A DNA stretch of 63,648 bases, counting the filler, from Fonticula-like sp. SCN 57-25 (Eukaryota), in assembly GCA_001724245.1 (NCBI GenBank). It is 11 parts of 11 records of this genome, joined end to end, with 100 filler letters (N's around TTAATTAATTAA, not from the genome) between each part and the next. Parts side by side here need not be neighbours in the genome. Positions count along the whole stretch, not along the records: positions 21,504 to 32,312 come from MEDX01000731.1; 10 more parts are not named here. One strand, 5' to 3'. Shown piece by piece: positions 507 through 32,412 of this stretch. Each line of letters opens with the position of its first letter. Position 1 is the stretch's first letter. The notes under the pieces were generated by a model that was not told where the DNA came from, did not search any database, and was given only the letters and a program-made list of their open reading frames with translations. Made by a program: the position numbers and the translations under genes.

Positions 507-3500
507 CTAGCCACCGAATCCGTAAGGGATGCTCAAACCGTCGTTCACAATGACACGCTTGCGCGAGTCCTTGGAACACTCATACCGTTTCGTACCGTAC
601 TCGTGATACACATTCATACTACGGTCCTTGGCAATGTTGAGCTGGTCCTCGAGAACGATAAAGTTCTTTGTCTCATCATCGCGGTTGGCTACGATGGACT
701 CAAAGACCTCGTGAGTAAACTTTTGAGCATTCGCCCAGTTAAGCGAAAAACCCTTCATCTTCATCGGGCAAATCTTTTTCCACGTCGTCGTGTCCTCCGA
801 GTACTGGTCGTTCTTGTCGATACGCTGGACCGTGCGGTGGCTGTAACTCTTTGGACCTCCGGCAACGAGCGCATACATAGCACCTGCCGTCGCCTTGTCG
901 GCCGATTCGTTCTTCCAGTCGCCAAGGTAGTCGCTAATCTCCATACCGGCATCCTCCAACTCTTGGCGCGTACGGACGAGCTTGCAGATGACCGAGTCCG
1001 TATCGCAGTATGCCACATTCTCGTGGCCGACGGCATCGAAAGCCGTGTACAGCTTGGTCCGCGCATACGCCGTGGTGTAGCACGCGTAATACACGTTTGC
1101 CGTCTTGAGCTCGACCTGCTGCACCGACGGCGATCCGTACGACACGGCCCAACCTTTTGTAATACCACCGTTCTCGATAGGTTCGTAGTTTACATTCATA
1201 ATCTGACCTTGAATCTCACGCTGCACCAGATTGTTGAGTTCCTGGCTACTCGTGACGATTTCAGTCCGCTTTTGATCGCTGTTTTGACCTAGTTTTCCCC
1301 AATTGGAGTTTAATAGCAATTTGCTGCCAGCTTTACGTCCTGGGTTGTCACACATCGCGTCGACGTCTAGAACGATTCCCTCGCGTTCCAGGAAGCCTTT
1401 GGCCAACTCATGGCGCTTTTCAAGACTCACATTCTTCGTAACGCCAAACTCGGTCTTTGACTTGAGGAACTTGTTCACGTACGACGCAAAAATACCCTTA
1501 CGCCACCTGCTAAAGTGATGGACATTGTAGATATCAAGCAGCTCGTATCCGTGATTGAGCGCATTGAGCAGCTCGACGTGGTTCGTGTCCGTCACAAAGG
1601 ACCGCTCGTCGTCGCTGTGTATGCACTCGCCGCGTTCCAAGGTGGTGTGCTGGCAAGTGGCGTTGACACGCTCCTCGAGTGTGTGATGGCAGATACTTTT
1701 TACACTACCGCGTGTGCAGTGCTCGCAGCAAGTAAAGACGAGCTTGCTAAACTTTCCAACCTGCATGCGTACCGGCAATACCGGAATGAGTAGGTTGCGT
1801 GGTGCGCGAACGCGTACTCGCATAAGACCCTTGTACACAGTGTCCGTTCCGTCTTCACCAACGATGCCTGTGGTGAATGGGTCGCCGCGCTTCCATGTAA
1901 TGTCGGACGCATAGAGGATTTCGGGATGACCGAGCGGGAATGGTTTGTACTTTTGCACCCATGGGTAGAGCGACGTCACGTCAAGATAGACAAGCAGGTT
2001 GTCGTACAGCTCATTGTCGTGCGGAACGCCTGGCCGGGCCTTTGATCTCAGCAGTTTCTCGATCGAACCATCGGCAATGGCCTGGTCGACCTCGTCATTC
2101 TCGAGCAGCGTAACCAGGTGCTTGAACGCTTCAGTACGACCTCCATAGAACGGGTCACGCGGGTGGAAAGGACGCGACTCTGGCGCACGCGACTTGTACG
2201 CATCCGTCGGGTCATAGGTACACTCGCAGATTGAGATCACGTTGTACCCAAGACTCTCGAGGAGTTCCGTCCGCATCTTGGTCATACCGCGCTTCTGCTC
2301 CGAGTCGGAAAAGTGAGCCTTGCACTTGTTGCAACCGCCGTGCCAGTATGCACCGAGGAACTCGAATACGGTATTGGTGGCTTCATCGTAAGCGTCGACG
2401 ACCACATATCCCTTTGTCATACGATGGTCACGTCCGATCACGCGTGTATCGGCATTGCGGAGTTTGATTCGGTGTCCGCGCTTCAAGTTTGGGATACCGA
2501 GCGAGTTGAGCCAGTCGTCCTCCAGCATGCTCGAGTTTACGCGGGCACCATGCTGCGAGAAGTAACCGATCTCGTCCTCAGCCATGTGATTGATCAAAAA
2601 CTCGGCGATGGCAAGACTCGCTGCAGTCGTATAGTTTGTGGGATCAAGAGCAATATCACCGTTTGCCCCAGTCAACTCCATCATTGATTTACGATAGAGC
2701 AGCCAACCGCGACCGAGTACTTCCACGTCGGCATGACAGTACTTGCGCATGTTCTCGCGGTAACTCCAACTCGTAAGCGGTGCAACGTCGGTCTTGTACC
2801 ACTCAATCAACGCCGCTCTGTCTTTACTACTCTTTCTATTCGGTTCGTAATCCTCGAGCGGCGGTGGTGGTCCTACATAGTTGAGTGTCTTGTTCATTGT
2901 GTCAATTTGGTCATCACCTTCCACGATGAAGCGATGTGGAAAGTCACCCTTGACAACAGTGTCGGCGAATCCAAACATGCCCGGCACGCTTTTGAGGGGG
3001 CACATCCAGTGGAGTAGACTGTCTGAAAACTGTACAAGCGGCGAGTTGAGTGGACGCTGCGTAGACGGATTCTTGGGGCATGCCTGCATTGCCTTTGCCT
3101 TGGAACCGACGCGTGTCAACTGCACGTGCTTATCTTGGCGAACGAGCTCGTTGAAGAGAAACCCAAAGTCATAACCTGATCCGTTATGAAAGTAAACATG
3201 AGCACCATCGCGCTCCTGGTCCATCAGATACCTTGTGCTTTCGTACAACGCGGACTCGCCTTCGAACTCGACGCTTTCATCAACTTCAAAGTCACCTGCT
3301 TCGGTCTCGCGGAAGCGCTTGATGACAGCAAAGTGCACGACGTGATGCCAGCGCTTACGTTTGGACAAGCGGCTAATATCCTGAAGCGGTTGTGTCTCAT
3401 AATCCGCGAAATAGATCTTGTCGAGCGGTACCGGCTCTGCAACCTTTGGCTTTTGAAGGTAGCATTTGTGCTCCTCGTCGATACCGTACTGCTTCCCGCA

Positions 3501-5309
3501 GTTGCCGCACTTGGCCTTGGTGCAATCGTGCTTCTTCATCTGAAATGCAGTAAAGATCCGACCGCACAAGTCACAACACACACGCGTTCCGCATACGTGT
3601 GCTGCAATGCATGACTGTGTCGGGAACTTGTAATTACATTCATCGCACTTGATCCACGGCGTTGACTTGGTCATCTCGGCGCGTTCAGCGTCGTGATTCT
3701 CTTTGCTCTTGCAGTGGCGGCACGGATGTGAGACCGCATATGGACACGCATGATCGTTGTCAACAACCTTGGAGCAAACATGGCACCAACGCTCTTCACT
3801 GCGATTCAGACGGTATGTGCTGTACTTTGTGATTCCGTTAAAGTGCTCATCGTTTTTACGCCACTCGATGTATAAATGCTTCTTGTACGTGGCCGTCTTG
3901 GTAAACGTGTGTTTTTCAGTAATCTCTTTGTCCTTGGTCAATGTCGTTGAGGTTTGGAGCTGACCGTGGTCGAAATCGTAGATGTGGATGTACGCCTTAA
4001 AGTACTTTTCTAGAATCGGAAGGTCCTCGGCGGTCAACTTTTCCTGGGTACTAAACTTGCGGCCGCGGCGCTTCATCACCTCAGGGTCCTTGTTCAACTG
4101 TTCCACGATTTCAAGGATCGCCTTTGCAAATGAGTGCGTATGAGGAATACCCTGATTGTTTTGACGCTGATTCTCTCTGATCGTGTACGCTAGCTTTTTC
4201 GCCTTCTCCGCATCCTTACCTGCATTGTAAAGTTCATTGTGGAGACTACAGTGATGCAATGCGTAAAGGAGGCAAAGTTGATCGTTTTTGTTTTTCACCT
4301 CAAAACGACTTTGAGCCTTGACAAACTTGTCTTTTGCCGGTGCCGTCTTGAGGCGCGCCCCGCCAGCCGTGTTACGCAGGATTGTAATTCCAATTGGGAT
4401 ACCGTTAAAGTTATCATGCTCGCGTGCAGACTGGATGACGGATGCCATGATGTTGGTCAGGAACTCGATTGTAACTTGGTGTTTCCGAACAAGAGCGCCT
4501 TCACCGCCACCAAGTTCAATACGGGCAAAGTCATTGTCACGCATATTGGCGTTCAGGTAGCTCTTCACCTCTTTGTGGATACCGTCAACTACGACAGACA
4601 GCGCAACCACTTCGTCACGCGTTGGCATGCGAGCGAGGGTACCTTTCTTTACCTTTTCATTAAGAATCTTCTGAGTTCTTGTCACAATAGGTTTGATGGG
4701 TCGTGTACTTTTACGTGTTGCAGTAAATTCGTCGTGAATCTGTTCACCGTTAAAGATGAGTTGCAGGTTCTCAGCAATATGGAACACACCCTCTGCGCGT
4801 TGAATGGGACCTGTTTGTTCAGACACACGCATTTCCGTGGTGATGACACGCTGCTTCAGATGACGTGCTAGGGCATCCGCACGACGGTTGAAATCGGTTT
4901 GAGCCTTTGTAGCTTCCAGCTTTCGTTTTCTCTGGTATTCCTCACTGGAAAGCTTATCAAGCGTGTTTTCATTATTTCGTTGTTTACGCTCAAGCGCCTT
5001 GCGTTGGCTGCGAGGCATGTTTGGTTCGTCTTCAAGCTGTCTCTCGATGGAGTATAGCTCGTTCAGGAGCTTATCGCTCGTTTTCTTATCGACCTCTTTC
5101 TGATTCTTAGCCTTGGTTAAGACTTCATGTGCCTTGTCCTTTCTAAGCTCCAACTGCTGCTGTTTGATTACAGCTGGTGAGCGCGCAACGTAGGTACGTT
5201 GGCGTCCGTTTACAGTACGAAGCTGACGTACCGAAGGGAGTCCCGTTTCGTTCTGGGTCGAGGTCATGGACATCGCCGGAACTGTTCTGGCTCGGGTCTT
5301 TGGCGGCAT
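507..5309 (-). CDS. Protein-primed family B DNA polymerase (Polinton pPolB), 1600 aa
   Basis: Exonuclease motifs FADYET, FHNGSGYD and YCHADV; PFYGGRTE; polymerase motifs YLDVTSLYP, KLLLNSNWGKLGQ, YCDTDS and KMKGF. Cys/His clusters lie N-terminal to the exonuclease. Confidence 0.96.
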   Translation of the reverse strand: MPPKTRARTVPAMSMTSTQNETGLPSVRQLRTVNGRQRTYVARSPAVIKQQQLELRKDKAHEVLTKAKNQKEVDKKTSDKLLNELYSIERQLEDEPNMPRSQRKALERKQRNNENTLDKLSSEEYQRKRKLEATKAQTDFNRRADALARHLKQRVITTEMRVSEQTGPIQRAEGVFHIAENLQLIFNGEQIHDEFTATRKSTRPIKPIVTRTQKILNEKVKKGTLARMPTRDEVVALSVVVDGIHKEVKSYLNANMRDNDFARIELGGGEGALVRKHQVTIEFLTNIMASVIQSAREHDNFNGIPIGITILRNTAGGARLKTAPAKDKFVKAQSRFEVKNKNDQLCLLYALHHCSLHNELYNAGKDAEKAKKLAYTIRENQRQNNQGIPHTHSFAKAILEIVEQLNKDPEVMKRRGRKFSTQEKLTAEDLPILEKYFKAYIHIYDFDHGQLQTSTTLTKDKEITEKHTFTKTATYKKHLYIEWRKNDEHFNGITKYSTYRLNRSEERWCHVCSKVVDNDHACPYAVSHPCRHCKSKENHDAERAEMTKSTPWIKCDECNYKFPTQSCIAAHVCGTRVCCDLCGRIFTAFQMKKHDCTKAKCGNCGKQYGIDEEHKCYLQKPKVAEPVPLDKIYFADYETQPLQDISRLSKRKRWHHVVHFAVIKRFRETEAGDFEVDESVEFEGESALYESTRYLMDQERDGAHVYFHNGSGYDFGFLFNELVRQDKHVQLTRVGSKAKAMQACPKNPSTQRPLNSPLVQFSDSLLHWMCPLKSVPGMFGFADTVVKGDFPHRFIVEGDDQIDTMNKTLNYVGPPPPLEDYEPNRKSSKDRAALIEWYKTDVAPLTSWSYRENMRKYCHADVEVLGRGWLLYRKSMMELTGANGDIALDPTNYTTAASLAIAEFLINHMAEDEIGYFSQHGARVNSSMLEDDWLNSLGIPNLKRGHRIKLRNADTRVIGRDHRMTKGYVVVDAYDEATNTVFEFLGAYWHGGCNKCKAHFSDSEQKRGMTKMRTELLESLGYNVISICECTYDPTDAYKSRAPESRPFHPRDPFYGGRTEAFKHLVTLLENDEVDQAIADGSIEKLLRSKARPGVPHDNELYDNLLVYLDVTSLYPWVQKYKPFPLGHPEILYASDITWKRGDPFTTGIVGEDGTDTVYKGLMRVRVRAPRNLLIPVLPVRMQVGKFSKLVFTCCEHCTRGSVKSICHHTLEERVNATCQHTTLERGECIHSDDERSFVTDTNHVELLNALNHGYELLDIYNVHHFSRWRKGIFASYVNKFLKSKTEFGVTKNVSLEKRHELAKGFLEREGIVLDVDAMCDNPGRKAGSKLLLNSNWGKLGQNSDQKRTEIVTSSQELNNLVQREIQGQIMNVNYEPIENGGITKGWAVSYGSPSVQQVELKTANVYYACYTTAYARTKLYTAFDAVGHENVAYCDTDSVICKLVRTRQELEDAGMEISDYLGDWKNESADKATAGAMYALVAGGPKSYSHRTVQRIDKNDQYSEDTTTWKKICPMKMKGFSLNWANAQKFTHEVFESIVANRDDETKNFIVLEDQLNIAKDRSMNVYHEYGTKRYECSKDSRKRVIVNDGLSIPYGFGG

Positions 5310-11530: not shown

Positions 11531-12979
11531 ATGGAAGACATTGTATGCCAATTTTGTCACCAGCTATGTGATGATCCAGTGCTTTTGCAATGCAAACATC
11601 CATTCTGTTCCAAATGTCTGCAAGCGCAGTTCTCCTTTGAACTCACACACAAAGCACGTGATAGTGTTGTAGGGATAGTTAAACAAATGAAGAAAATCCA
11701 TCACAAAAAGCGAACAATCCATATTTGCTGTCCTGTTTGCAACGAGAAAACAATTGTAATTTTCTCACAAGGAGATATCAAATTATCAAACAATCAACAA
11801 ATGTCAGCTGTAAACGATGGATTGGGAGAGAAACAACAACAACAACAACAACAGTACATCCCTGATGAAATGTTGCAATGGATGTTCCAGTTTTTGAATG
11901 CAAAGGAATTGTTTATGAAAATTCGTTTTATATGCCAAAGAATTGACAAGATTGTATGCACCTCATTACTCTCTCTTCATTGTCAAGGAATGTGTATAAA
12001 TGGGTTGAAATTTGTACGTGAAATTTTACCAAAGGAAACTCTATTGCAAGAATTGAACTTGATGGCAAATAATATTGGTGATAATGTGATAACAGAAATT
12101 GCATCAATATTTCCATTGATTCATCAATTACAGATTCTGAATCTTTCTTGGAATCAAATTGGAGACACTGGTGCAACTGCAATTGCTAATTCTGTTACAC
12201 ATCTGAAACAGTTACAAATGTTGGATATTTCTTGGAATCCAATTGAAAATCCTAGGATAACTGCAATCTCCAATGCAGCCAAAATATTGACAAAATTACA
12301 AGAATTGAAGATTACTGAGGAATATCATCAAGAAATTCATGAGCAAGTGATAGAAGTGTTAGAGGAGGATGAATCAGGATTGAATTTTCATGATTGTGAT
12401 CTTGACGAAACTTTTGCGATTGCAATGGCAAAATTGTTCCCACAATTGACACAATTACAACAGTTGAACCTGAGTGATAATCGAATTGGAGACACTGGTG
12501 CAATTGCAATTGCCAAAACAATCTCCCATTTGACACGATTACAGGAGTTGTCACTTGATAATAACCAACTTGGGGATGATGGCGTAATTGCAATTGTGAA
12601 TTCAATCACCAATTTGACACAATTACGAGTATTACGGCTTGCGGTAAACCAAATTGGAAACACCTGTGCAATTGCAATTGCCAACTCTATCAGCAATTTG
12701 ACACAATTACAAGGGCTGTATCTTTATAATAACCAATTTGGAGACACTAGTGCAATTGCAATTGCCAGTTCAATCAACAAGTTGACACAATTACAAGAGT
12801 TGTGGCTTCATAGCAACCGAATTGGAGACACTGGGACAATTGCAATCGCCAAAGCAATCCTCAATATGACACAATTACAACAGTTGCACCTTGGTGGTAA
12901 CCAGATTGGATACACTGGTGCAGCTGTACTTGCCAATTTCATCACCAATTTGAAACAGTTACGGTTGTATGACTCTTAG
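11531..12979 (+). CDS. RING finger + F-box-like + RI-type LRR protein
   Basis: C3HC4 RING CQFC..CKHPFCSKC..CPVC; F-box-like IPDEMLQWMFQFL...ICQR; 28-aa LRRs with consensus LTQLQELxLxxNQIGDTGAIAIA. Confidence 0.88.
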   Translation: MEDIVCQFCHQLCDDPVLLQCKHPFCSKCLQAQFSFELTHKARDSVVGIVKQMKKIHHKKRTIHICCPVCNEKTIVIFSQGDIKLSNNQQMSAVNDGLGEKQQQQQQQYIPDEMLQWMFQFLNAKELFMKIRFICQRIDKIVCTSLLSLHCQGMCINGLKFVREILPKETLLQELNLMANNIGDNVITEIASIFPLIHQLQILNLSWNQIGDTGATAIANSVTHLKQLQMLDISWNPIENPRITAISNAAKILTKLQELKITEEYHQEIHEQVIEVLEEDESGLNFHDCDLDETFAIAMAKLFPQLTQLQQLNLSDNRIGDTGAIAIAKTISHLTRLQELSLDNNQLGDDGVIAIVNSITNLTQLRVLRLAVNQIGNTCAIAIANSISNLTQLQGLYLYNNQFGDTSAIAIASSINKLTQLQELWLHSNRIGDTGTIAIAKAILNMTQLQQLHLGGNQIGYTGAAVLANFITNLKQLRLYDS

Positions 12980-21503: not shown

Positions 21504-23230
21504 GACCCCGGGGACTCGGACACCGTGGACTCAGACTTCGGGGACTTGGGATCTGGGGACTCAGACTCTGGGGACTTGGACTCCGGGCACTCAAACTCCG
21601 AGGACTCAGACTCAAGTAACGATTCGAGTAAGCGCAGGTTAGCATCATCACGGAGCTCTTGGTTGCATTGCTCAATGTCCCTTTCACGTTCCAAATATGA
21701 TACGTAATCGGGCATGGCGTTTGCAACAGCTTGCACCTGTTTCGCAAGATGACTACCGGAAAGGGACGGTGAGGAGTGCGTGTTCAACAGAGAAGTCAGG
21801 TCTGCCGCAAGGGCGGCCCTGTGGTGATTCGAACTGATTTGCTCCAACGAAAACCCATCAAAAAGAAAAACAGAGTCACAAAGAATGGACCATTCTGCGA
21901 GGCGCACAACGAGACCGCGTAGTGCAGTGCATAGAATGTCACATGTCGGTGCCACCCGGTGGCTTCCTGATTGAGCAGGTGGAGGGTCGTACATAAGCTG
22001 AACGGCTTGAACAACGTTCGTCTCAAGCAGGAAAGCCGCGAAATTTTGAGATAGTAGGTCGTCGCGAGGATGCTGGCGACATAGTACTATTGTCATTTCC
22101 ATTAGAAGACGAGCTACTTCCACGGCTAAAACGAGGTGTCGGTGGGTGTCTGTAGGCGGATGTCTATGCAACAGACGTTGAATGTTGTGAGTCTCACTCT
22201 CCGCGCCCATAATATAGCCGACGAGCTTGGAATTGAAACTGGCGGACAGTGCATCTGCGGCCCGATTGCCCATGCTCAGCTGCAGCCTCAGCACATTGAG
22301 CACCAGCTTGCATTCCCGAGGGCGGTCCGTTATCATGAACGTCGCCAGGAAGCGCATAGTGTCAGGCGCAAACCTGGCTGGCATCTCGAGACGAAAAACC
22401 GGGAAAGGAAATTGCGCAGTCGAGCAAACTTCACTAATATGGTCACCCTCCGTCACGCCTCCCGCCGTTGTTGAGCAGACTTCATGAAGGAATTGCTCAA
22501 AATGCTCTAATACGACTACGAATTCGGAATCCACCACGTCGCGGCTTCCGGAATTTGTAGAACCCGTGGCTACGAAATACGATAATACCGCAATGAAATC
22601 GACGAGCTGCCTACCAACTGCCACGCGCAAATCCTCTTCCCAGGGGCGCGGCTGGGCAAAAGTGTACAGGAGCCGGACCACGTCGCCGACTTGCGGCATG
22701 GGAGATCCATCGTTGCGTTGGATATGATGTGAGCGCGCAAGTAACGGAAGGATAAATCTGCCAAGCAATGGCTTCTGGTTCGCGACGACGAATTTGGCAG
22801 CAGCAGCGCGCGTCTGGTCGTCGCGAGGCTCGCGAGAGAAGACATAGCCAAGAATAAAAGACGCGCACAGGCCGAGTAGGGGGTCGACCGGCGCGTGTTC
22901 GTCCTGCAAATAATGTGGCGCCATGGCCCGCTTGCGTAGCTCTTGAAATAACCGCGCGTGCGACCGGATTGACCCAGTGCCGGTCTGTTCAACAAGGTTC
23001 ACGAGGCCTAGGGTGACAAGAACGATGTCTCCTCCACCGTAGCACTGGTCCGTGTTGGCGGTGTTGCCACTGTTGCCCATGGCCCCCCAATTTGAATCCT
23101 GGGGTTGTTTCAGAAGTTGACGAAACAGTTCCTCACGATCGGCATTATGCCTGCTTTGTATATCCGCTTCCAAAACGGAGCGTCGCTCGAGCAGCTGCCC
23201 TTTCTTGTTCGACGACGCTGCCATGGTCAT
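21504..23230 (-). CDS. Hypothetical helical protein with Ser/Glu/Pro-repeat tail, 3'-truncated
   Basis: About 575 uninterrupted codons with amphipathic-helix character; the tail ESKSPESESPDPKSP is encoded by 15-bp degenerate repeats; no recognisable motif. Confidence 0.6.
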
Positions 23231-23458
23231 TGGTCTCAGGCTCTCAGCGTGATGTTTGCAGCTCCTTCCGTCAGCCGTGACCACGGTGACCTCGCCGTGG
23301 ATGATATCGTGAAAATCGTCGTGCGTTCGAATCCCTCAAAAGCACTGGCACTTTTGATTGGATGGCATCACACTGGTCGTTTATGTCTGCCTGACTGCCT
23401 CTTTGTTTTCCTCGCAGTTTCCTCGTCTGTTCCTCGTCCCGCTTGCAAAAGTTGCAAA

Positions 23459-25342
23459 ATGGACGAAAAGCTAGCGAAGCTTGCACAAGTCAACAAGGTT
23501 ATCGAGGAATTGGGGGGAATCGACTCGCCCAAGATTCCTCCCGCGCTCGCCGCGAAGCGTGCAGCCCTTGAACGCAATATTGCTGCTCTGGCTGCTGAAA
23601 TCGATGATGACATCGAGTCGAGCCAAGAGGTTAACGAAGATGGTGAGGACGGTAGTTGTGAAAGCCCAGCCCCCCCGGATGAAGCGCCTACCGAGCCCAC
23701 GCGCACCAAGCCCCTGGCATCTGGGCGTCGGGCGGGCCGCCCTACCAGTGAGCGTGGTCGTGGCCGCTCCTCGAAACGAGGCACTTCGCGTTCTCGTCCG
23801 CCCGTTGCCGACGCGGCATCAAGCTATTCCACTCGTCGCAGCCCCGCCCACCATCCTGCCGAGTATTATTCCGGACACCCCGCCGCTCACCCCAGCGTCC
23901 CCTACGGTTATGGCTATTCTCGTTTCGACCCGTATGGTCGCCCGCATGGCCAATTTGGCTATCCTCCCGCTCACCCTGCTGACCCCTATGGTCATCCTTC
24001 CTCCTCCACCGGCCCCTACCCTCCCCCCTATGCGAATGGCTCTCGGTCGTATCCCCCTGCCGACACCGTGGACCCGCGTGACCGCGAGATTGAGGAATTG
24101 CGTCGGGAATTGGCCAGGGCGAAGTTAGCCCCCGGCTCTGCCGCTCCAGCACCAGTTGACCCGCGTGACCGCGAGCTGGAAGAGTTGCGGCAGCAATTGG
24201 CGGCAGTGAAAGCGGGTTCCAGCACTTCCTCAGCCATCGCCGTTGATGCCATAGCCGTCGACCCGGTATTGGCCCGTGAGCTTGAGGAGTTGAAGCACAA
24301 AGTGGCGGCCAAGGCAGCATCTTCCACACCTTCACATGACTCAACAACAGCCAGCAGGAGCAAGACTTCTGTCCGAGCAAGCACTCATGGTACCAGCACT
24401 CGCGGTGATCCTATGATGACAAGCTTTTCGAAGATGGCGGAAGAACGTGCCAAGGCAGAGAAAGCCTTGAGTGATTTTGAGAACAGCTCGTATATGCCGA
24501 CTACCGTCAATCGCAAGCAAGCAGAGGCTGAGAAACGTCTCGAGGATCTCCGCCTCAAGTCGGTGGCACTGAAGTCGGGCGCCCCATCTGCTTCTGATAT
24601 GCGCACTGCGCAAAAGGAAATGGAAAAGTTCAAGGGCGTTGATGTGGCGTTTTTGATGGATTGCACGGGTTCCATGCAGCCCTACATTAACGGCACTCGC
24701 GACAAGATTGTTGAGATCATGCGCCTTATGCCCACGATTAATCCAGAGGCGAAAGTCCGCCTTGGTTTCGTTGGTTACCGCGACCATTGTGATTCGGAGC
24801 GCTTCATCAAGATTGACTTTACTTCTGCGCAGAACGTCGAGCGGCTGGCTTCTGACCTTGGCAAGATACGTGCGGATGGAGGAGGAGATGCCCCTGAGGA
24901 TATTGCAGGCGGTTTGCACATGGTGGCGCACGAGCTGACGTGGCTGGCATCCACTCGGCTGGTGATTCACTTTGCTGACGCGCCCTGTCACGGTTCCCAA
25001 TATCATAGCTTTTCGGACTCGTATCCTGGCGGAGATCCTGACGGTAAAGTCCCAGAGGAATTGTTGAAGTTCATGTGCAAGCGCAGGGTGGACTATACGT
25101 TTGTGCAAATTAACCCCAGCGCTACTGCTTCCATGCTGCAGAAGTTTCAAGCAGCCTACGACGGAACGGTCATTCCGCAGATAAAGAAGGGTACGTTCAC
25201 CGTCATGGATCTCAAGGCACGATCCGACGAGTTTTTACCCAAGGCCATTGCAAACACAATTATGGAGAGCATTCGTTCTTCGATGTCTCGCAGCGTGCAC
25301 CTTAGCGCGAGCACGCGTCGTAGCACCTTCACTATGAGCTGA
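23459..25342 (+). CDS. vWA (MIDAS) domain protein of the VwkA type with disordered/coiled-coil N-terminus
   Basis: DVAFLMDCTGSM (DxTxS), RLGFVGYRDH, GGGDAPEDIAGGL and IHFADAPCHG; three VDPRDRE(I/L)EEL-type repeats. ATG 23459 chosen so that it does not overlap the opposite ORF. Confidence 0.88.
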   Translation: MDEKLAKLAQVNKVIEELGGIDSPKIPPALAAKRAALERNIAALAAEIDDDIESSQEVNEDGEDGSCESPAPPDEAPTEPTRTKPLASGRRAGRPTSERGRGRSSKRGTSRSRPPVADAASSYSTRRSPAHHPAEYYSGHPAAHPSVPYGYGYSRFDPYGRPHGQFGYPPAHPADPYGHPSSSTGPYPPPYANGSRSYPPADTVDPRDREIEELRRELARAKLAPGSAAPAPVDPRDRELEELRQQLAAVKAGSSTSSAIAVDAIAVDPVLARELEELKHKVAAKAASSTPSHDSTTASRSKTSVRASTHGTSTRGDPMMTSFSKMAEERAKAEKALSDFENSSYMPTTVNRKQAEAEKRLEDLRLKSVALKSGAPSASDMRTAQKEMEKFKGVDVAFLMDCTGSMQPYINGTRDKIVEIMRLMPTINPEAKVRLGFVGYRDHCDSERFIKIDFTSAQNVERLASDLGKIRADGGGDAPEDIAGGLHMVAHELTWLASTRLVIHFADAPCHGSQYHSFSDSYPGGDPDGKVPEELLKFMCKRRVDYTFVQINPSATASMLQKFQAAYDGTVIPQIKKGTFTVMDLKARSDEFLPKAIANTIMESIRSSMSRSVHLSASTRRSTFTMS

Positions 25343-25356
25343 CCAGCCTGACCTGT

Positions 25357-26944
25357 TCATTTGGCCCTATCTCTTCTTCTTGTTTCGCTTGTTCGACGTG
25401 TACTTGCGCGAATCGATGAAGTGTACTCTACAACGTGGTCTACATCATCGATTTGCTGCGTGGGCATCAATATATCACTAGTAATTTCTATCCACATGCC
25501 GGAAGACCATGTATCGAATTCACGAGGCCAGTTGGGTGTACGTGTATCATTAATGATAAATACAGAGAAAGCCCGTCCAAACGAAGAATGCTGTATTCGC
25601 GAACACGATAATATGGTGAAAAAGACACTGGCGCAAACACTTACCTGCTCTCGATCCAGGCAACGCAATGCGGGGCAGGCGAGGATGCAACTAGACGATA
25701 CGCAAAAGGTAGATAGGCATCGTAAAAGTTCAGCGTAAGATCCAATTCAATTCCGCTACGATGCTGCCATTACGCTCAAAAAATGCAAAGGCGTTCAAAG
25801 CAACGTGGAGTACTTGATGGTCGCCACGGAAGAACTCCTTGGTGAGCGCCACGGCACGTTTGTGCTCCGCAGAGTAGCTTGACAATGAGGAGACGTGCCT
25901 AATGAGGTCGAATGTCACTTGCGTCAGGACGCGGGGAAACGTCAGATCCCTGCTGTAAAGCGGCAAAAAAGTCGCGCTCAAGGGACCCGAGACAACGAGC
26001 CAGTCTCCCCAATCTCTGGCAAAGCGCAGAATCGACTCGTAGAGCGCCTGCTGTAGTTTGAGCTCGTTGGGAGAGATGAGCATCGAATACCTGCTGCCCT
26101 TGCCCACTTGCGAAACGAGACGAACAAACTCTAGAAAACTCCACAATATTTGCACCGCCCACATGTTGGTGGTCCTATTGTGGTGCTCGGCCGTTGGCAC
26201 AACGGAGGTAGGAAAATCAGCAGCAGCCTCGGCCTTGCCTAAAAAGGGAGGCATAGTATAGTCTGTTGAGCGGGTTCTTGAAGGCGTGCCCGTATTGGTT
26301 GGCTCGCTGCCCGTTGTGCATGATTCATCAACGTCCATCTCGTCTCCACACAAGGCATTGCTGCTTCCTGACTCGCCGTGGCGCACGCTACCTTCGCTCG
26401 GCCTCCCTACGCTGAGTGCATTTTTGGCAGACACTTGACAAGTGACAAGCTCGGTGACGTCCGCCGGGGCCGGGCTCAAAACTGGGTCGTGCCATTGCGG
26501 GTAGAAGGAGGAAGACAACAACCCCTCAAGATCTTCTGGAGACATATCCACCACAAGCAGGCAGCAATCGTTCAGCGCCTCCGCTGCAATTCCCTGGTAA
26601 GCGGGCTCGGAGGGGTCGTCCTCATCATTGTCAAAAATCGAAAGGCCGCCTTTGATGCTTGCAGGTGCAGACGATGACGCAATCGAGCGGGCAGTGCTCT
26701 CGACTGTGTCGACAGTGTCGTAGGATATCTGTGTAACTCGGTCGGATCGGGNAACTCGGTCGGATCGGGGGCTTCTTCCGCCAGTTTCCTGCTTATTCCT
26801 TGGCAGCGATGCTTGCGCTGGAGGTTTGCGACCTCCGGATGCAGCCTGTGCGTAAGTTCTTCTTGTCTTGTTTTCTTGGCGTGGTCGCTGCCCAGCCTGC
26901 CCCATTACGAGCCCGCAAACCTGACCAAAAATTTGAGCCAACAT
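25357..26944 (-). CDS. Hypothetical protein, probably extended by a frameshifted 3' segment
   Basis: 404-aa ORF to 25730. Removing one A near 25748 continues in frame (IGSYAELLRCL...RDRAK*) to 25357, 14 bp from the convergent vWA stop. Confidence 0.5.
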
Positions 26945-27078
26945 GAGGAAGTAAAAATCGCATGCGACAACAAAGCAGATTTTAACACAAAAGCTGACAG
27001 GGCCGTAAGTCTGCCTTTTGTCGGCGCTTGTCTGGCGGCGACTGGCGCTTGTCTGGCGCTTGTCGGTTGTTTGCGGAA

Positions 27079-29346
27079 ATGAGGCCAGCCAGCGCTAGTT
27101 CAAAATCTACCCAACCCCAACGACGGCGACCCGCTTCGACTCGAGACAATGGTGCACATATTCCTGCGATATTAAATGATGCTCCAGCTGAGCATCGCCC
27201 ACCTGCAAAGTGCCGTTTTGGGGTAAAGTGCCATCAGACCGCTTGCCGCTTTTCCCATCCGCCCGAGCGGGTGTTCCCATCGGAGTCCCCGCGACCTGCT
27301 TCGGTTGAATCGACTCGTGACGACAACGCACGTATCCCAGCGGCAGGCCGTACTCAAGCCAAGCATCGCCGACCCCGGCCACCCTCAAAGTGCCGTTTTG
27401 GGTCAGACTGCTTCAATCCTGCATGCCTCTTTCCCCATCCGCCCGAATGGCGAATGTGTCTTGTTCCCGATTGCGCGGACTTCATGTGCGAGCGATTGCA
27501 TGGGCTACCTCGTTCGTTTCCGTTGTGGTATATGGTTCAAAAAGAAATAGGTAGTGATTCACTCGCGCCGCAGCTTAAGACGACATGGAAATCCCTCCTA
27601 AGCACAGTTCGTGCGCATGAAGAAAAACGCTTGTCCGAGCTTAAAGTGCACAAGAAACGTTGTGGTAAGCAACCATCCAAGAGTGCTTCTGGTACCTCTC
27701 CTTTCAGCGTTGATCCCATGGCTGCTGCGCAGGATCGCCTTTTAACGTTTGTCAAGCACCGCTGCGTATTTGATACCTTATTGCATGACTTGCTGACCCT
27801 TTTTCTGGACAAAAACCTGACAACCGTTCTCCTCCACGAACGTCTTCAATGGGAGACGGATCGTTTCGTTGACGCAGTGTTTATGCTTTCTGCTAACGTT
27901 CAGCAGGCAGGAGCGCGTGGCCATCACGCCCCCCCTGCCTCGCGTCGTTCCGGAGCAACGCTGCCCCAGGATATCAACACACTGGACGCGACGCATGATA
28001 ACATTCACTCCCCATCGCGTCGTGTTGCGCCGTCATCTTCTCCTGGTCATCCCAGCACGCTGTCGCCCGCTGCTCGTGCTAGCCTTCCTTCCAATGCCCA
28101 ATCATCGTCGCCCATGGCGCGTGGTACGCCACCGCAGGACGATGAGCTCTTGGCGCGTGTCACGCCGCCGCAGGACGATGAGCTTGCCAAACGCTTGCGG
28201 GAAGCCAAGGAAGCGAAGGAAGCGGAGATGCGCCGGGAGGTCGCAAAGATGAAGCAGCAGCTGGAGCGGATGGAGTTGGAGGAACGGCGGAAACAAAAGA
28301 AGCGAGAAGCAGACGAAGAACGACGACGGCGCATTCAAGACAACTATGTCAAGAAATGTGAAGCGGAAGAAAAGCTCAAGCTTCTCAAGGTGCAGCGTCG
28401 GCTTGAAGGTCTTCAACGAGTGGCGAAATTGCAAAGTAAACTTGACGCGCGCGAGAAAGATATCCAGGAACGTGAGTTGCAAAAGCAGGAACGCGAGTTG
28501 CTAAAGGAGGTTGAGAAGATGGAAGGCAACATCCGTGAGTATGCCTTTATGCAGTCGAAAATCTATGCTGAAAAGGTTGAATACGACGACGTGAGCAACA
28601 CTTGGACTGACTCTAGCGGCTGGACCGACCTTGCGGAGCTCAAGGCCCATCAGTTTTCGCTGACTCCTGAGGGTGAAGGGTGGAAATTCCGGGAAATTGA
28701 ATCCGCCAAACTCTCAGTCCGCGTGCGCAAGCGTCCCTTTGAATGCGGCTCTTTTCGCTTCTGCTATTACGCGCAACTATCCGACGGACGTAAAATGGTG
28801 GCCAAGGCTTTCATTGCGGACAAATTTATCAAGGACAAGACTGTTATGTTGCAAGATGCCATTGCTCAAATGCGCATTCACATGATTGCTCACGAGTACG
28901 CAAAGATCTTTTCGGCCACCGCGCCAGCAGGAACTACTCGCGTCGAATACGTCAAGTCATGGCTCTTGTCAGATGTTAAGGCGGGATCATCGCCATTCAA
29001 TGGGCACTATATTTGGTTCCTTGAACCACTTCTCGATGGCTCCTTCGTCAAGTACAACAATAACAAGGATCAAGTGAAGGACGAGCATGAGGTGCCGCAA
29101 GCATTTTCACACTTTTGCTGGCACCAAAGCAAACAGCGCTTCATGGTGGTGGACGTCCAAGGATTACATGAGGAGAGCAAGCGTCGTTACATGTTGACCG
29201 ACCCTGCCATACATTCCAAAGACAATTCCTGTGGCGACACAGACCTTGGTTCGAGCGGCTTTTCTCATTTCTTTGGGGCACATCGTTGCAACACACTTTG
29301 TCGTCAACTGCGACTTGCGGCCCACCCGGCGCAATCGTCAGCCTGA
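27079..29346 (+). CDS. Alpha-kinase (eEF2K/MHCK family) with N-terminal CCCH zinc fingers and coiled coil
   Basis: CRFGVKCHQTACRFSHP and CRFGSDCFNPACLFPHP; kinase motifs PFECGSFRFCY, VAK, EPLLDGSFVKYNNN, PQAFSHF, VVDVQG, LTDPAIH and GDTDLG..F...HRCN..C. Confidence 0.93.
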   Translation: MRPASASSKSTQPQRRRPASTRDNGAHIPAILNDAPAEHRPPAKCRFGVKCHQTACRFSHPPERVFPSESPRPASVESTRDDNARIPAAGRTQAKHRRPRPPSKCRFGSDCFNPACLFPHPPEWRMCLVPDCADFMCERLHGLPRSFPLWYMVQKEIGSDSLAPQLKTTWKSLLSTVRAHEEKRLSELKVHKKRCGKQPSKSASGTSPFSVDPMAAAQDRLLTFVKHRCVFDTLLHDLLTLFLDKNLTTVLLHERLQWETDRFVDAVFMLSANVQQAGARGHHAPPASRRSGATLPQDINTLDATHDNIHSPSRRVAPSSSPGHPSTLSPAARASLPSNAQSSSPMARGTPPQDDELLARVTPPQDDELAKRLREAKEAKEAEMRREVAKMKQQLERMELEERRKQKKREADEERRRRIQDNYVKKCEAEEKLKLLKVQRRLEGLQRVAKLQSKLDAREKDIQERELQKQERELLKEVEKMEGNIREYAFMQSKIYAEKVEYDDVSNTWTDSSGWTDLAELKAHQFSLTPEGEGWKFREIESAKLSVRVRKRPFECGSFRFCYYAQLSDGRKMVAKAFIADKFIKDKTVMLQDAIAQMRIHMIAHEYAKIFSATAPAGTTRVEYVKSWLLSDVKAGSSPFNGHYIWFLEPLLDGSFVKYNNNKDQVKDEHEVPQAFSHFCWHQSKQRFMVVDVQGLHEESKRRYMLTDPAIHSKDNSCGDTDLGSSGFSHFFGAHRCNTLCRQLRLAAHPAQSSA

Positions 29347-29531
29347 ATGGCCTTTGACAGCCTCTTGCCTTGTCCATACTGTAAGAGAGCCAAATGAATA
29401 CGGTGTACATAGTTAATAATTCCGCTAATATACTACCAGTCTACCAACCCTCTATTATATCGAACCCAAATATCCTTTCGTTCACTGCTCAGAATCTCAT
29501 AATCATCAGTTTTATGCATAATGGTCAGGAA

Positions 29532-29621
29532 ATGGTGATGGTAATGGTGATGGTAATGGTGATGGTGATGGGTGATGGTAATGGTGATGGTAATGGTGAT
29601 GGTAATGGTAATGGTGATGGT
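29532..29621 (+). repeat. (ATGGTR)n hexamer microsatellite
   Basis: Tandem ATGGTG/ATGGTA units seen directly. Confidence 0.95.
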
Positions 29622-30426
29622 TATGTGCAACACGATTGTTAAAGGGGCAAATTACCTGCCTTTTACGGACGTACGATCACTACCAGTAGATCGTCTTTGC
29701 TTTCTTTGGGCACCCCGTACGGAACAGCTCAAACTCTTCTGAAAATCATGATTGATAGTGGATTTGTATTTTTCACCATTGTTCAAAAGGCCAAATGCTC
29801 AGTGATGGAATGACTGAAACTCTCCTGAAAATTATGGTGGGATTTGTACCTCTAGCTTGCTTCCGGCCAAATGCTCAGTGTTGGCACGCTTTTGATAGAC
29901 CGTGGCCTAAAATTGTCCGCCCCAGACAATACCCCAGACAATCAGGGTTTTGTTACGGGAAGGACGCTTTCCCGTAATCCCAGATTTTCGCCGAAACGCA
30001 CCCAAAAATCATTTTTGATTAGCTGGACCATATTTTGATCCTGATTATGTTATCCCAGATTTTTTGTTCCCGAACCTTTCCCGCCAATTTCACGGCGCGT
30101 AGACCTTTGAACATGCCTGCAATGGGCCGTTTCCTTGTGGCAGAAGACAAAAACGCAATTCTATAGGCCAAGTGTATGGGAACCATATAAAAATGTATAG
30201 ATTCTTTTCCTGGCGATTTCAGACCACAGTGCTGCGAATGCGGTGTGTCGCATTGCCGCCATGAGCATTGGCAAAGCATCTGCATCTGCAGCGATGTCCG
30301 ACGGCTGGCCCACAGGCTTCTTTGAATGTGTCTCTCAACTTCAAGCATAACAGTTTCATTGCTCAATTACCCATATTCTGACCGAGCGAGTCTATTACAA
30401 CAATGCGATCGCGCCGCCGCCATCCC

Positions 30427-32308
30427 TCACGTGTACTTTTGCATGACGACCGCATTGAGCAGCTTTTCGTCCGCGACCGTCGCCGCCGGGTCCCTGAGCT
30501 CGCGGTTCGGGAACGTCGTGAGCAGCGCAAAGGGCCGCGCGTCCCCCGGCCGCGATCTTCAATGCACCCACAGTTAGCCATCCCTGCAAACCGCGCCCAG
30601 TTTGCGTACTGCTGGATGAAGCGGACGATGTCGGCGACCGTGTGCGTGTGGTTGAGCTTTGCGACGAGCCTGCTGCCGTCGGCGAGGCGGATCTGCACTT
30701 GCGTCGTCGGCGCGCTCGCGTCGACCTCGATCGTCGCGGCGGCACCGGCGGCGGGCACGGCGGCCGACACGGCGGCGGCGGCAGAGGCGGACGACGCGCC
30801 GTCGCCAGGGATGATACTGACGTAAAATGTGAGAGACGCAAAAAAGAGAGACAAAAATGGCGCACGTTCCGAGGCGGTTTCCGCTGCCGGTAAAGGCCTG
30901 CGCGGGCTGCTTGGTAGGCACGTAGTCCTGGTCCTGGTTGGGCTGGATGTAGAGGTTGACGGGGCCGTGGTCGGCGCGCAGCTCGGCGGGGACGAGTCTG
31001 CAGGGAAAGGAAAGGGTTAGTAAAGGCGGGAAATCATGTAGAAAAAGAAAGGCATAAAAAGCATTAAATTAACCATATCAACAGCCACACAGACATCAAT
31101 ACCAGTCATCATGAACAGGAACATGATCACCATAAACATCAGTCATCATGCACATGACCACCAATACCAGTCATCAATCATGAACAAAACTCATTAAAAT
31201 GTCATCAATGATAAACATAATCATTATCAACCATCAATGTTTCTTGATCCCATTCCCATTCTATGCCATCTCACTTTTCACTTTCCATCCCACTTCACCA
31301 CGCATACCCCTGCCTGATTGTGTTGAGGAACGCGGCGTTCTGCGGCTCCTTATAGTCACGCAGCGGCCCATCGTCCACCGTAAATCCATTACGCCAAAAA
31401 GTGATACGGCGGCGCTGCTCTTCCTCCTGCGCCGGCTGCGCGGCGGGGACAGTGGCGGGGTCGGGGGTGGCGGGGTCGTCGAGGGACTCGCCGAGGCGGT
31501 AGCCGGCGCCGTGGAAGGAGCGCTTGGCGGGGGCTTCGTCAAGAGGCTGGGCGGGGTTTCTGCCAATTAGAGTGAGACATTGTGATATAGGCACAAAAGT
31601 AGACAAGCACAATGATGCATAGATAGGTGGGTAGTGGCATGGACATTGAGCTTGATAGAAACACATAAATTACAAACGTACTGTGCGGCGCGCTTCATAA
31701 TGCTGTCAATTGCGCTGCGGTGCCCGCCTTCCTTTGGCGGTCCCTTGACGGCGACGCCACTAGCACAAGTAGGTCAGATCGGCATCATCAGCAGCAATGA
31801 TGCGTACGAGTGCTTCCCGCCGGCATAAAACTCGTTCGTCTCGTCGTCGTCGTCATCGTCGTCATCGTCATCATCGTCATTGCCGCCGCCGCTGCCGCCG
31901 CGCAGGATGTCGGCCAGTGTGCGGATGCCGCCCCTGTATGCATGCTGATCATCAGCACATCATCAGGCGAGCCAACAAGGGACGCACGAAGGAGGCGCGC
32001 TGCGTGATGATCCCGCCGACGGTGCCGCCGCGGGCGCAGCAGAGGAAGACGATGGCTGTGAAGATGCCTGTATCAAGCATCGGTGTTAGTTAAGCGGCGA
32101 TGTGCGTCAAGGGGATCGCATGCCTGCATGTCGCCGTCGTTCAGGTAGCTCTCCATGGCCGACTGGGGCGGCGGGTGAGTTAATAGAAAGCGAGAGATGG
32201 CGCGCGCACCTCAACGTCGCCGTTAAAGGCCGCAATGAGACGCTCGGCGACGCTGCGAGACGCGCCGGTCGCCTGCACGAAGAACTCAATCCCCTCGTCG
32301 CGTTCCAT
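30427..32308 (-). CDS. NSFL1C: p47/Shp1/NSFL1C Cdc48-p97 cofactor (UBA-SEP-UBX), multi-exon
   Basis: UBA-like [38 protein letters not shown] box [27 protein letters not shown]...TTFPNREL...LLNAVVMQK. Confidence 0.93.
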
Positions 32309-32412
32309 CGTCNNNNNNNNNNNNNNNNNNNNNNNNNNNNNNNNNNNNNNNNNNNNTTAATTAATTAANNNNNNNNNNNNNNNNNNNNNNNNNNNNNNNN
32401 NNNNNNNNNNNN

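What the first reader, a model, noticed from the sequence alone, without database searches (positions are those of the whole stretch)
21504..29346. Four-gene cassette with a split vWA / alpha-kinase pair and two orphan partners
Seen: orphan(-), vWA(+), orphan(-), CCCH-alpha-kinase(+), arranged as two divergent pairs with gaps of ~228, 14 and 134 bp. There are no introns in the coding regions and weaker GC3 bias than the intron-rich p47 gene on the same contig. Established: this vWA subtype is fused to an alpha-kinase in Dictyostelium VwkA-type proteins. Inference: a co-inherited signalling, defence or allorecognition module (or cargo of a large mobile element) with sensor and kinase encoded separately; I know of no described system with this layout.
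Basis: partly seen in the sequence, partly recalled or inferred. Interest (0 to 1): 0.72.

Follow-up and report, generated by a model that had tools for sequence, protein, structure and literature searches.

The report
Linked vWA and alpha-kinase gene pair
Two protein domains that are normally fused in one signalling enzyme are here encoded by separate neighbouring genes, and the same pairing recurs in an alga and a third microbial eukaryote, which points to an undescribed, jointly inherited kinase module that may also include two helical partner proteins.

Summary
The four ORFs are real and form two divergent pairs on one scaffold. Two details are wrong or unshown: orphan B stops at 25730 (gap to vWA 387 bp, not 14) and may be spliced; orphan A runs off the contig. 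The join at 26752 looks true. The main result is conserved linkage. A search with the vWA domain alone found a stand-alone vWA gene beside a separate coiled-coil alpha-kinase gene in 2 of 3 other distinct loci with enough flank: a second metagenomic eukaryote and the haptophyte Chrysochromulina tobinii. C. tobinii also has four genes, with two family-less long ORFs, one head-to-head with vWA. The exception has a degenerate vWA motif. The window and C. tobinii kinases group together (99/88). A vWA-kinase complex prediction gave weak support (0.50 against 0.00). The orphans have no detectable relatives and no likeness between cassettes. Best reading: a VwkA-like kinase encoded in two parts and kept clustered, probably with fast-evolving helical partners. 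A defence role is inference only; allorecognition and mobile-element cargo got no support. Six literature searches found no description.

The parts
21504..23230 (-). Orphan A, at least 575 aa, predicted all-helical (ARM/HEAT-like, weak), acidic Ser/Pro repeat tail running off the contig end
   Evidence: ORF; no Pfam; 0 hits in 1.84 billion representatives; Atlas ARM-type clusters at 0.91-0.92; AF2 pLDDT 41, helices only
23231..23458 (.). 228-bp head-to-head gap between A and vWA
23318..23361 (+). 44-bp piece, 89-93% alike to a stretch near one end of a ~1.1-kb dispersed repeat of G000 that carries a decayed helicase C-terminal motif
   Evidence: UvrD_C_2 E 0.007, under cut-off; loose ends at 23361 in all four runs laid
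23459..25342 (+). Stand-alone vWA protein, 627 aa: N-terminal helix, Pro/Gly/Tyr-rich stretch, short helical repeats, C-terminal VwkA-type vWA domain (about aa 393-612) with DCTGS, GYRD, GGGDxPED and FADAP motifs intact
25357..25746 (-). Open frame in the vWA/B gap containing a GT-AG intron-like stretch (25644-25591); possible spliced 3' extension of B, unproven
25730..26944 (-). Orphan B, 404 codons as assembled (398 if the 17-bp overlap is one copy): low-complexity N-terminal part, probably helical C-terminal ~150 aa
   Evidence: no Pfam; Atlas HEAT-type clusters 0.89-0.91 with low recognition, weak
26735..26769 (.). Scaffold join: one N at 26752 between two copies of a 17-bp sequence; frame of B kept
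   Evidence: 9,493-bp contig listed for vWA, B and kinase
26945..27078 (.). 134-bp head-to-head gap between B and the kinase; holds one copy (26955-26967) of a motif enriched across G000
   Evidence: 98 strand hits against 1 for the reversed control
27079..29346 (+). Alpha-kinase, 755 aa: Nab2-like CCCH fingers (aa 45-60, 105-120), charged helical coiled-coil-like stretch (aa 364-490), C-terminal alpha-kinase domain (aa 557-741) with catalytic and zinc-binding motifs intact
30427..32312 (-). Neighbouring host gene p47/NSFL1C (SEP domain), multi-intron; not part of the module

Best explanation
This is a VwkA-like alpha-kinase system encoded in trans. Shown: the vWA domain and the kinase that are one polypeptide in VwkA-type proteins are separate, intact genes here, and they are neighbours in three eukaryotes. 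Inferred: the vWA protein binds the kinase protein, probably through the helices before each domain and the vWA metal site, and acts as its regulatory or targeting subunit. The helical orphans, each sharing a short divergent promoter with one of the pair, are co-expressed, fast-evolving scaffold, input or substrate subunits. The genes stay clustered because they only work as a set and are gained or lost together. Most likely output (weakly inferred, about 35%): an inducible stress or anti-parasite switch in which the kinase, here carrying RNA-binding-type fingers, phosphorylates a host target such as translation or cytoskeletal machinery, as eEF2K, MHCK and ALPK1 do (family functions recalled, and PMC2827801 passages).
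For: Linkage found without searching for the kinase: of 79 loci returned for the vWA alignment, long-N-terminus stand-alone vWA ORFs with enough flank fall into 3 groups, and 2 have a separate kinase on the other strand (L013-15, 135 bp away; L074/75/82, about 2 kb away). L074/75/82 match C. tobinii KOO28091.1 (vWA) and KOO28095.1 (kinase), both listing a 41,761-bp contig. That locus has two further family-less ORFs, one head-to-head with vWA at about 136 bp. The kinase-less group (L016-18) has lost the GGGDxPED motif. Window and C. tobinii kinases are sisters, 99/88, 44 rows; the three linked kinases and paralogue P0086 form one clade at SH-aLRT 84, 30 of 44 rows. G000 gave one alpha-kinase and one vWA of this type, both here. 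Complex prediction 0.50 against best control 0.00, runs agree in at least 84% of contacts, partner pLDDT at least 83: weak support; such passes came from 5 of 78 solved complexes and all 4 passing mismatches of 180. No solved structure matched the vWA profile.
Against: Orphans of the two four-gene loci show no similarity by BLAST or single-sequence HHalign, so their equivalence rests on position and weak helical signals. In L013 the neighbours are not head-to-head orphans. Gene order and orientation differ in all three loci. L016-18 has no kinase within 5.7 kb upstream and 4.1 kb downstream. vWA trees place the window with L013/L017 (98/65) and not with the haptophyte copies; monophyly of stand-alone vWAs has support 58 only. 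The C. tobinii kinase is a long branch. Kinase N-termini differ between loci, and Pfam found CCCH fingers only here. Most stand-alone vWA relatives come from contigs too short to test.
Confidence: 0.6

Rival explanations
1. Only the vWA-kinase pair is a unit: an old fission of a VwkA gene whose halves stayed near each other. The orphans are unrelated lineage-specific genes, and the function is ordinary VwkA-like signalling.
For: No orphan homology between loci; no such partner beside the L013 pair; C. tobinii cassette GC3 0.60-0.78 is like its flanks 0.71-0.76; close vWA relatives in other high-GC contigs form one clade with C. tobinii, 100/100, which suggests vertical descent.
Against: Two distant genomes both have exactly two long family-less ORFs in the cluster, one head-to-head with vWA at 228 and about 136 bp. 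In the window all four genes share low GC3. Order and strand have been shuffled, yet linkage is kept, which passive retention after fission does not explain well.
Confidence: 0.25
2. The cassette is passenger DNA brought in by a mobile element or virus, and its genes are linked by the carrier, not by function.
For: Lower GC3 and few or no introns against host genes; a 44-bp piece shared with a helicase-remnant repeat; short stand-alone vWA genes occur on giant-virus contigs.
Against: No transposase, integrase or element end on C731. None of 16 viral vWA loci has an alpha-kinase within the flanks held; a kinase scan of viral contigs confirmed 0 of 58 stretches. The giant-virus-like vWA ORFs are short and sit elsewhere in the tree. 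The cassette is single-copy in G000 and carries a host motif. The left boundary is unseen.
Confidence: 0.1
3. An allorecognition or toxin-antidote locus with divergent haplotypes.
For: Head-to-head pairs and orphan partners resemble such loci (general knowledge); the L013 organism has a second kinase paralogue, 39% identical, listing the same 39,108-bp contig.
Against: C. tobinii-like cluster members differ by 0-7 residues in kinase, vWA and the 809-aa orphan, apart from indels; clusters at 90% would hide divergent alleles. No other letters in four runs laid on the window.
Confidence: 0.05

Closest known systems
Dictyostelium VwkA (vWFa-kinase) and fused vWA-alpha-kinases of fungi, oomycetes and ciliates
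   Same: Same vWA subtype (about 30-47% identity to the vWA of fused proteins); alpha-kinase at the extreme C-terminus (PMC2827801 passage; PMC3019232 passage).
   Different: Two genes instead of one, on separate transcription units with an ORF between; a long charged helical stretch and CCCH fingers precede the kinase; two orphan genes in the cluster.
MHCK and eEF2K alpha-kinases
   Same: Kinase domain (PDB MHCK-A E 5e-20, eEF2K E 2e-17); coiled coil before the kinase as in MHCK-A (recalled).
   Different: No WD40 or SEL1 region; outside the eEF2K group in both trees.
Prokaryotic vWA conflict systems (vWA-MoxR ternary systems, PMC7159879, listing and abstract start only; TerY-phosphorylation triad, recalled)
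   Same: A stand-alone vWA gene clustered with a kinase or effector and variable partner genes.
   Different: Eukaryotic; alpha-kinase, not a Hanks-type kinase; no MoxR ATPase or PP2C phosphatase; the listing shows no occurrence of 'alpha-kinase' in that paper.
Head-to-head paired NLR genes and fungal het loci (recalled)
   Same: Divergent gene pairs with short shared promoters.
   Different: No NB-ARC, NACHT or HET domain; no allelic diversity seen.

Membership tests
VwkA (vWFa-kinase) | vWA and alpha-kinase domains in one polypeptide | tested here: not met
   Separate ORFs 1.7 kb apart with an opposite-strand ORF between
VwkA (vWFa-kinase) | vWA domain of the subtype found in fused proteins | tested here: met
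   Hits include many fused PF25106+PF02816 proteins; motifs intact
VwkA (vWFa-kinase) | C-terminal alpha-kinase with catalytic and zinc-binding residues, no WD40 | tested here: met
VwkA (vWFa-kinase) | Kinase domain nests among fused vWA-kinases | tested here: inconclusive
   Sister to fused P0071/P0087 at SH-aLRT 83 in the 30-row tree; open fork in the 44-row tree; Dictyostelium VwkA itself was not among the rows
VwkA (vWFa-kinase) | Ser/Thr kinase activity, contractile vacuole and Golgi location, effect on myosin II | not testable with these tools
   PMC2827801 passage
MHCK / eEF2K | C-terminal WD40 (MHCK) or SEL1 repeats (eEF2K) | tested here: not met
   Kinase domain ends 14 residues from the stop; Pfam finds only PF02816
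vWA-MoxR and TerY-P prokaryotic conflict systems | MoxR AAA+ ATPase, or Hanks kinase plus PP2C, beside the vWA gene (recalled) | tested here: not met
   No such family in the four ORFs
Allorecognition locus | Highly divergent alleles in a population | tested here: inconclusive
   None seen, but samples are few and 90% clusters or 85% read matching would miss divergent alleles
Cargo of a Helitron, Polinton or giant endogenous virus | Element ends and replication or integration genes on the same stretch | tested here: inconclusive
   None on C731 beyond a 44-bp piece; left boundary missing

The most novel reading that the evidence does not exclude
A four-gene, operon-like eukaryotic defence module found across supergroups: an alpha-kinase effector, a vWA adaptor and two rapidly diverging helical-repeat sensors, moved between lineages as a block. 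It would be a eukaryotic counterpart of bacterial vWA-kinase conflict systems, with the fused VwkA kinases as its domesticated or ancestral form.
Probability: 0.25. Interest if true: 0.85.

Novelty: new variant of a known kind. Interest (0 to 1): 0.62.

Why it matters
Conserved clustering of signalling genes across distant eukaryotes is rare and usually marks co-function. VwkA-type kinases are widespread, yet their substrates and the role of the vWA domain are unclear (PMC2827801 passages). A natural split form makes the vWA-kinase relationship testable with two separate proteins, and the linked orphans are candidates for the missing inputs or substrates. C. tobinii is a named, sequenced alga, so the test need not wait on the uncultured window organism.

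Tried and rejected
tblastn of both orphans and both N-terminal halves against 79 metagenome loci gave nothing at E 0.01. AF2 single-sequence models of orphan A (pLDDT 41) and the C. tobinii 501-aa orphan (pLDDT 42) are too poor to use; Foldseek gave ARM-type rows at TM under 0.3, kept as a lead only. Kinase homologue searches were saturated (8000 and 7998 candidates scored), so no kinase from Trebouxia, Elliptochloris, Cavostelium or Echinamoeba was found or excluded. L020, L049, L050 and similar same-strand vWA and kinase ORFs were read as intron-, code- or frameshift-broken fused genes and not counted. The P-x-W segment before the kinase was first taken as a VwkA-specific linker; rejected because eEF2K has it too. 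A possible kinase intron 27665-27903 is 239 nt and would break the frame. No RNA holder listed. Runs X3 and X4 (equal size, possibly one data set) cover only the left half; low depth, no conclusion, and no empty-site joint was seen. Viral origin. Earlier scan notes by sequence and by words gave nothing. Literature: searches found no description of linked separate vWA and alpha-kinase genes; most subscription papers are not held and no supplements were opened.
Full report
Setting. The window is a string of separate contigs joined by N linkers. The finding is the left part of G000:C731 (21504-32312). G000 is 9.5 Mb in 749 contigs; earlier scan notes describe giant-virus and phage contigs in it (unchecked), so it is probably a mixed assembly. 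The one EF-1alpha among three matches (C63) has the short insertion I recall as opisthokont-specific. That C63 and C731 come from one organism is likely but not shown. Both halves of C731 carry marks shared with other G000 contigs: a 44-bp piece of a dispersed repeat on the left and an enriched palindromic motif on the right (98 strand hits against 1 control); C521, C58 and C398 carry both.

Observation. Four long ORFs lie as described: orphan A (-), vWA (+), orphan B (-), alpha-kinase (+), with head-to-head gaps of 228 and 134 bp. GC3 is 0.55-0.62 against 0.76-0.84 in five host gene pieces. The reported 14-bp gap is not there: B stops at 25730, 387 bp from vWA. Another frame runs to 25357 and a GT-AG stretch lies at 25644-25591, so B may be spliced. 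A is cut by the contig end. The join at 26752 is a 17-bp overlap with one N; B's frame is the only one without internal stops on both sides. A vWA variant differing by one residue, the left-of-join part of B and the kinase all list a 9,493-bp ENA contig. I infer one contig across the join, though it could itself be a scaffold. Logan contigs of four runs match without listed differences; run X2, from another study than X1, holds pieces of both halves; none of the pieces shown bridges the N.

The proteins. The vWA protein has intact DCTGS, GYRD, GGGDxPED and FADAP motifs. Its 68 relatives (of 2369 candidates) include fused vWA-alpha-kinases and a set of stand-alone proteins with a long helical or low-complexity N-terminus and the vWA domain at the C-terminus, among them proteins from Cavostelium, Echinamoeba and Trebouxia. 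The kinase keeps the ATP-site lysine, DxQG, TDP and the His/His/Cys/Cys zinc motifs, and has a charged helical stretch (aa 364-490) and Nab2-like fingers below cut-off. Orphan A has no relative in 1.84 billion representatives. Both orphans give weak helical-repeat signals in the Atlas.

Linkage test. After setting aside fused or broken-fused genes and contigs too short to test, three groups of long-N-terminus stand-alone vWA loci remain. L074/75/82: 809-aa orphan (+), kinase (-), 501-aa orphan (-), vWA (+), the last two head-to-head; vWA and kinase match C. tobinii KOO28091.1 and KOO28095.1, both on a 41,761-bp contig. L016-18: no kinase in 5.7 kb upstream or 4.1 kb downstream, and this copy has lost GGGDxPED. 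So 2 of 3. As a rough assumption, 20 alpha-kinase genes in 50 Mb would put one within 5 kb by chance about 0.4% of the time. vWA genes of other builds (short giant-virus forms, forms with long C-terminal extensions, L035) had no kinase neighbour.

Trees. Kinase, 44 rows, careful method: window plus C. tobinii 99/88; the L013 pair separate on an open fork. With 14 long, partial or redundant rows dropped, quick method, all four form one clade at SH-aLRT 84, beside fused ascomycete-type proteins at 83. vWA, 54 of 118 rows: window with L013/L017 at 98/65, haptophyte-type copies elsewhere on a weak backbone. With 32 rows the 15 stand-alone forms are one side of a branch at support 58. A single fission is compatible with this, not shown; direction (fission or fusion) is not determined.

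Complex. vWA protein residues 309-619 with kinase residues 364-752, folded without alignments: score 0.50, best of 3 controls 0.00, runs agree in at least 84% of contacts, partner pLDDT at least 83. The tool calls this weak support: at 0.60 or under, 5 of 78 solved complexes and all 4 passing mismatches of 180; 7 of 44 blind neighbour pairs also passed. No solved structure matched the vWA profile, so recall of a like complex is unlikely.

Mechanism. Shown: intact separate genes; linkage in three eukaryotes despite changed order and strand; related kinases. Inferred: the two proteins form a complex that does in trans what VwkA does in cis, with vWA as regulator or targeting subunit. More weakly inferred: the orphans are subunits, from head-to-head promoters in two genomes, shared low GC3 here and helical character. 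Against this, they share no detectable sequence and L013 shows none beside the pair. Weakest: a stress or defence output, argued from clustering, patchy distribution, fast-diverging partners and the known roles of alpha-kinases. Allorecognition lacks allelic diversity. Mobile cargo lacks element ends, and no viral alpha-kinase was found.

Comparison. It works like VwkA but fails the defining test of one polypeptide, so it is not filed as a VwkA. PMC2827801 (passages) describes VwkA as a fused protein with unclear substrate; PMC3019232 (one passage) reports fused forms in oomycetes, fungi and a ciliate. PMC7159879 was seen as listing and abstract start only. Six searches found no linked split form; the library lacks most subscription papers, and supplements were not opened.

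Verdict. A real, conserved vWA and alpha-kinase gene pair, a new variant of a known kind (confidence 0.6 that it is a functional trans-encoded unit with probable partners), with about a one-in-four chance of being a new four-gene eukaryotic defence module. Interest 0.62.

Noticed in passing
window 507-5309 (-): 1600-aa protein-primed B-family DNA polymerase (PF03175, E 3e-26) with a RAP-like insert, on a separate contig; Polinton-like or linear-element origin likely; not linked to the cassette.
   Followed up: no
G000:C521, C29, C398, C58 (L006-L009): Dispersed ~1.1-kb repeat, 79-86% between copies, with a decayed helicase C-terminal motif (UvrD_C_2 E 0.007); possibly a non-autonomous Helitron-like element. 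C58 holds an internally shortened copy.
   Followed up: partly
G000 genome-wide; window 26955 and 58607: Palindromic motif AAATCGCATGCGA(TTT): 98 strand hits against 1 for the reversed control; candidate transcription-factor site or repeat end.
   Followed up: partly
L090-L092, L023, L024, L040, L048: Giant-virus-like contigs carry a short stand-alone vWA gene in a conserved neighbourhood near topoisomerase II-like and RNA polymerase subunit-like genes (names from reading the ORFs, not scanned), with no alpha-kinase.
   Followed up: partly
L017:6065-7969: Single-ORF vWA paralogue, 60% identical to the L013 copy, with a degenerate signature motif and no kinase neighbour, next to an intron-rich RNA polymerase large-subunit gene.
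   Followed up: partly
L050: Three tandem fused vWA-alpha-kinase genes within 9.5 kb.
   Followed up: no
window 11531-12979 (+): RING-LRR protein on an AT-rich contig (GC3 0.33), probably another organism.
   Followed up: no
window 29520-29625: GGTGAT/GGTAAT microsatellite between the kinase and p47; similar tracts on five other G000 contigs.
   Followed up: partly
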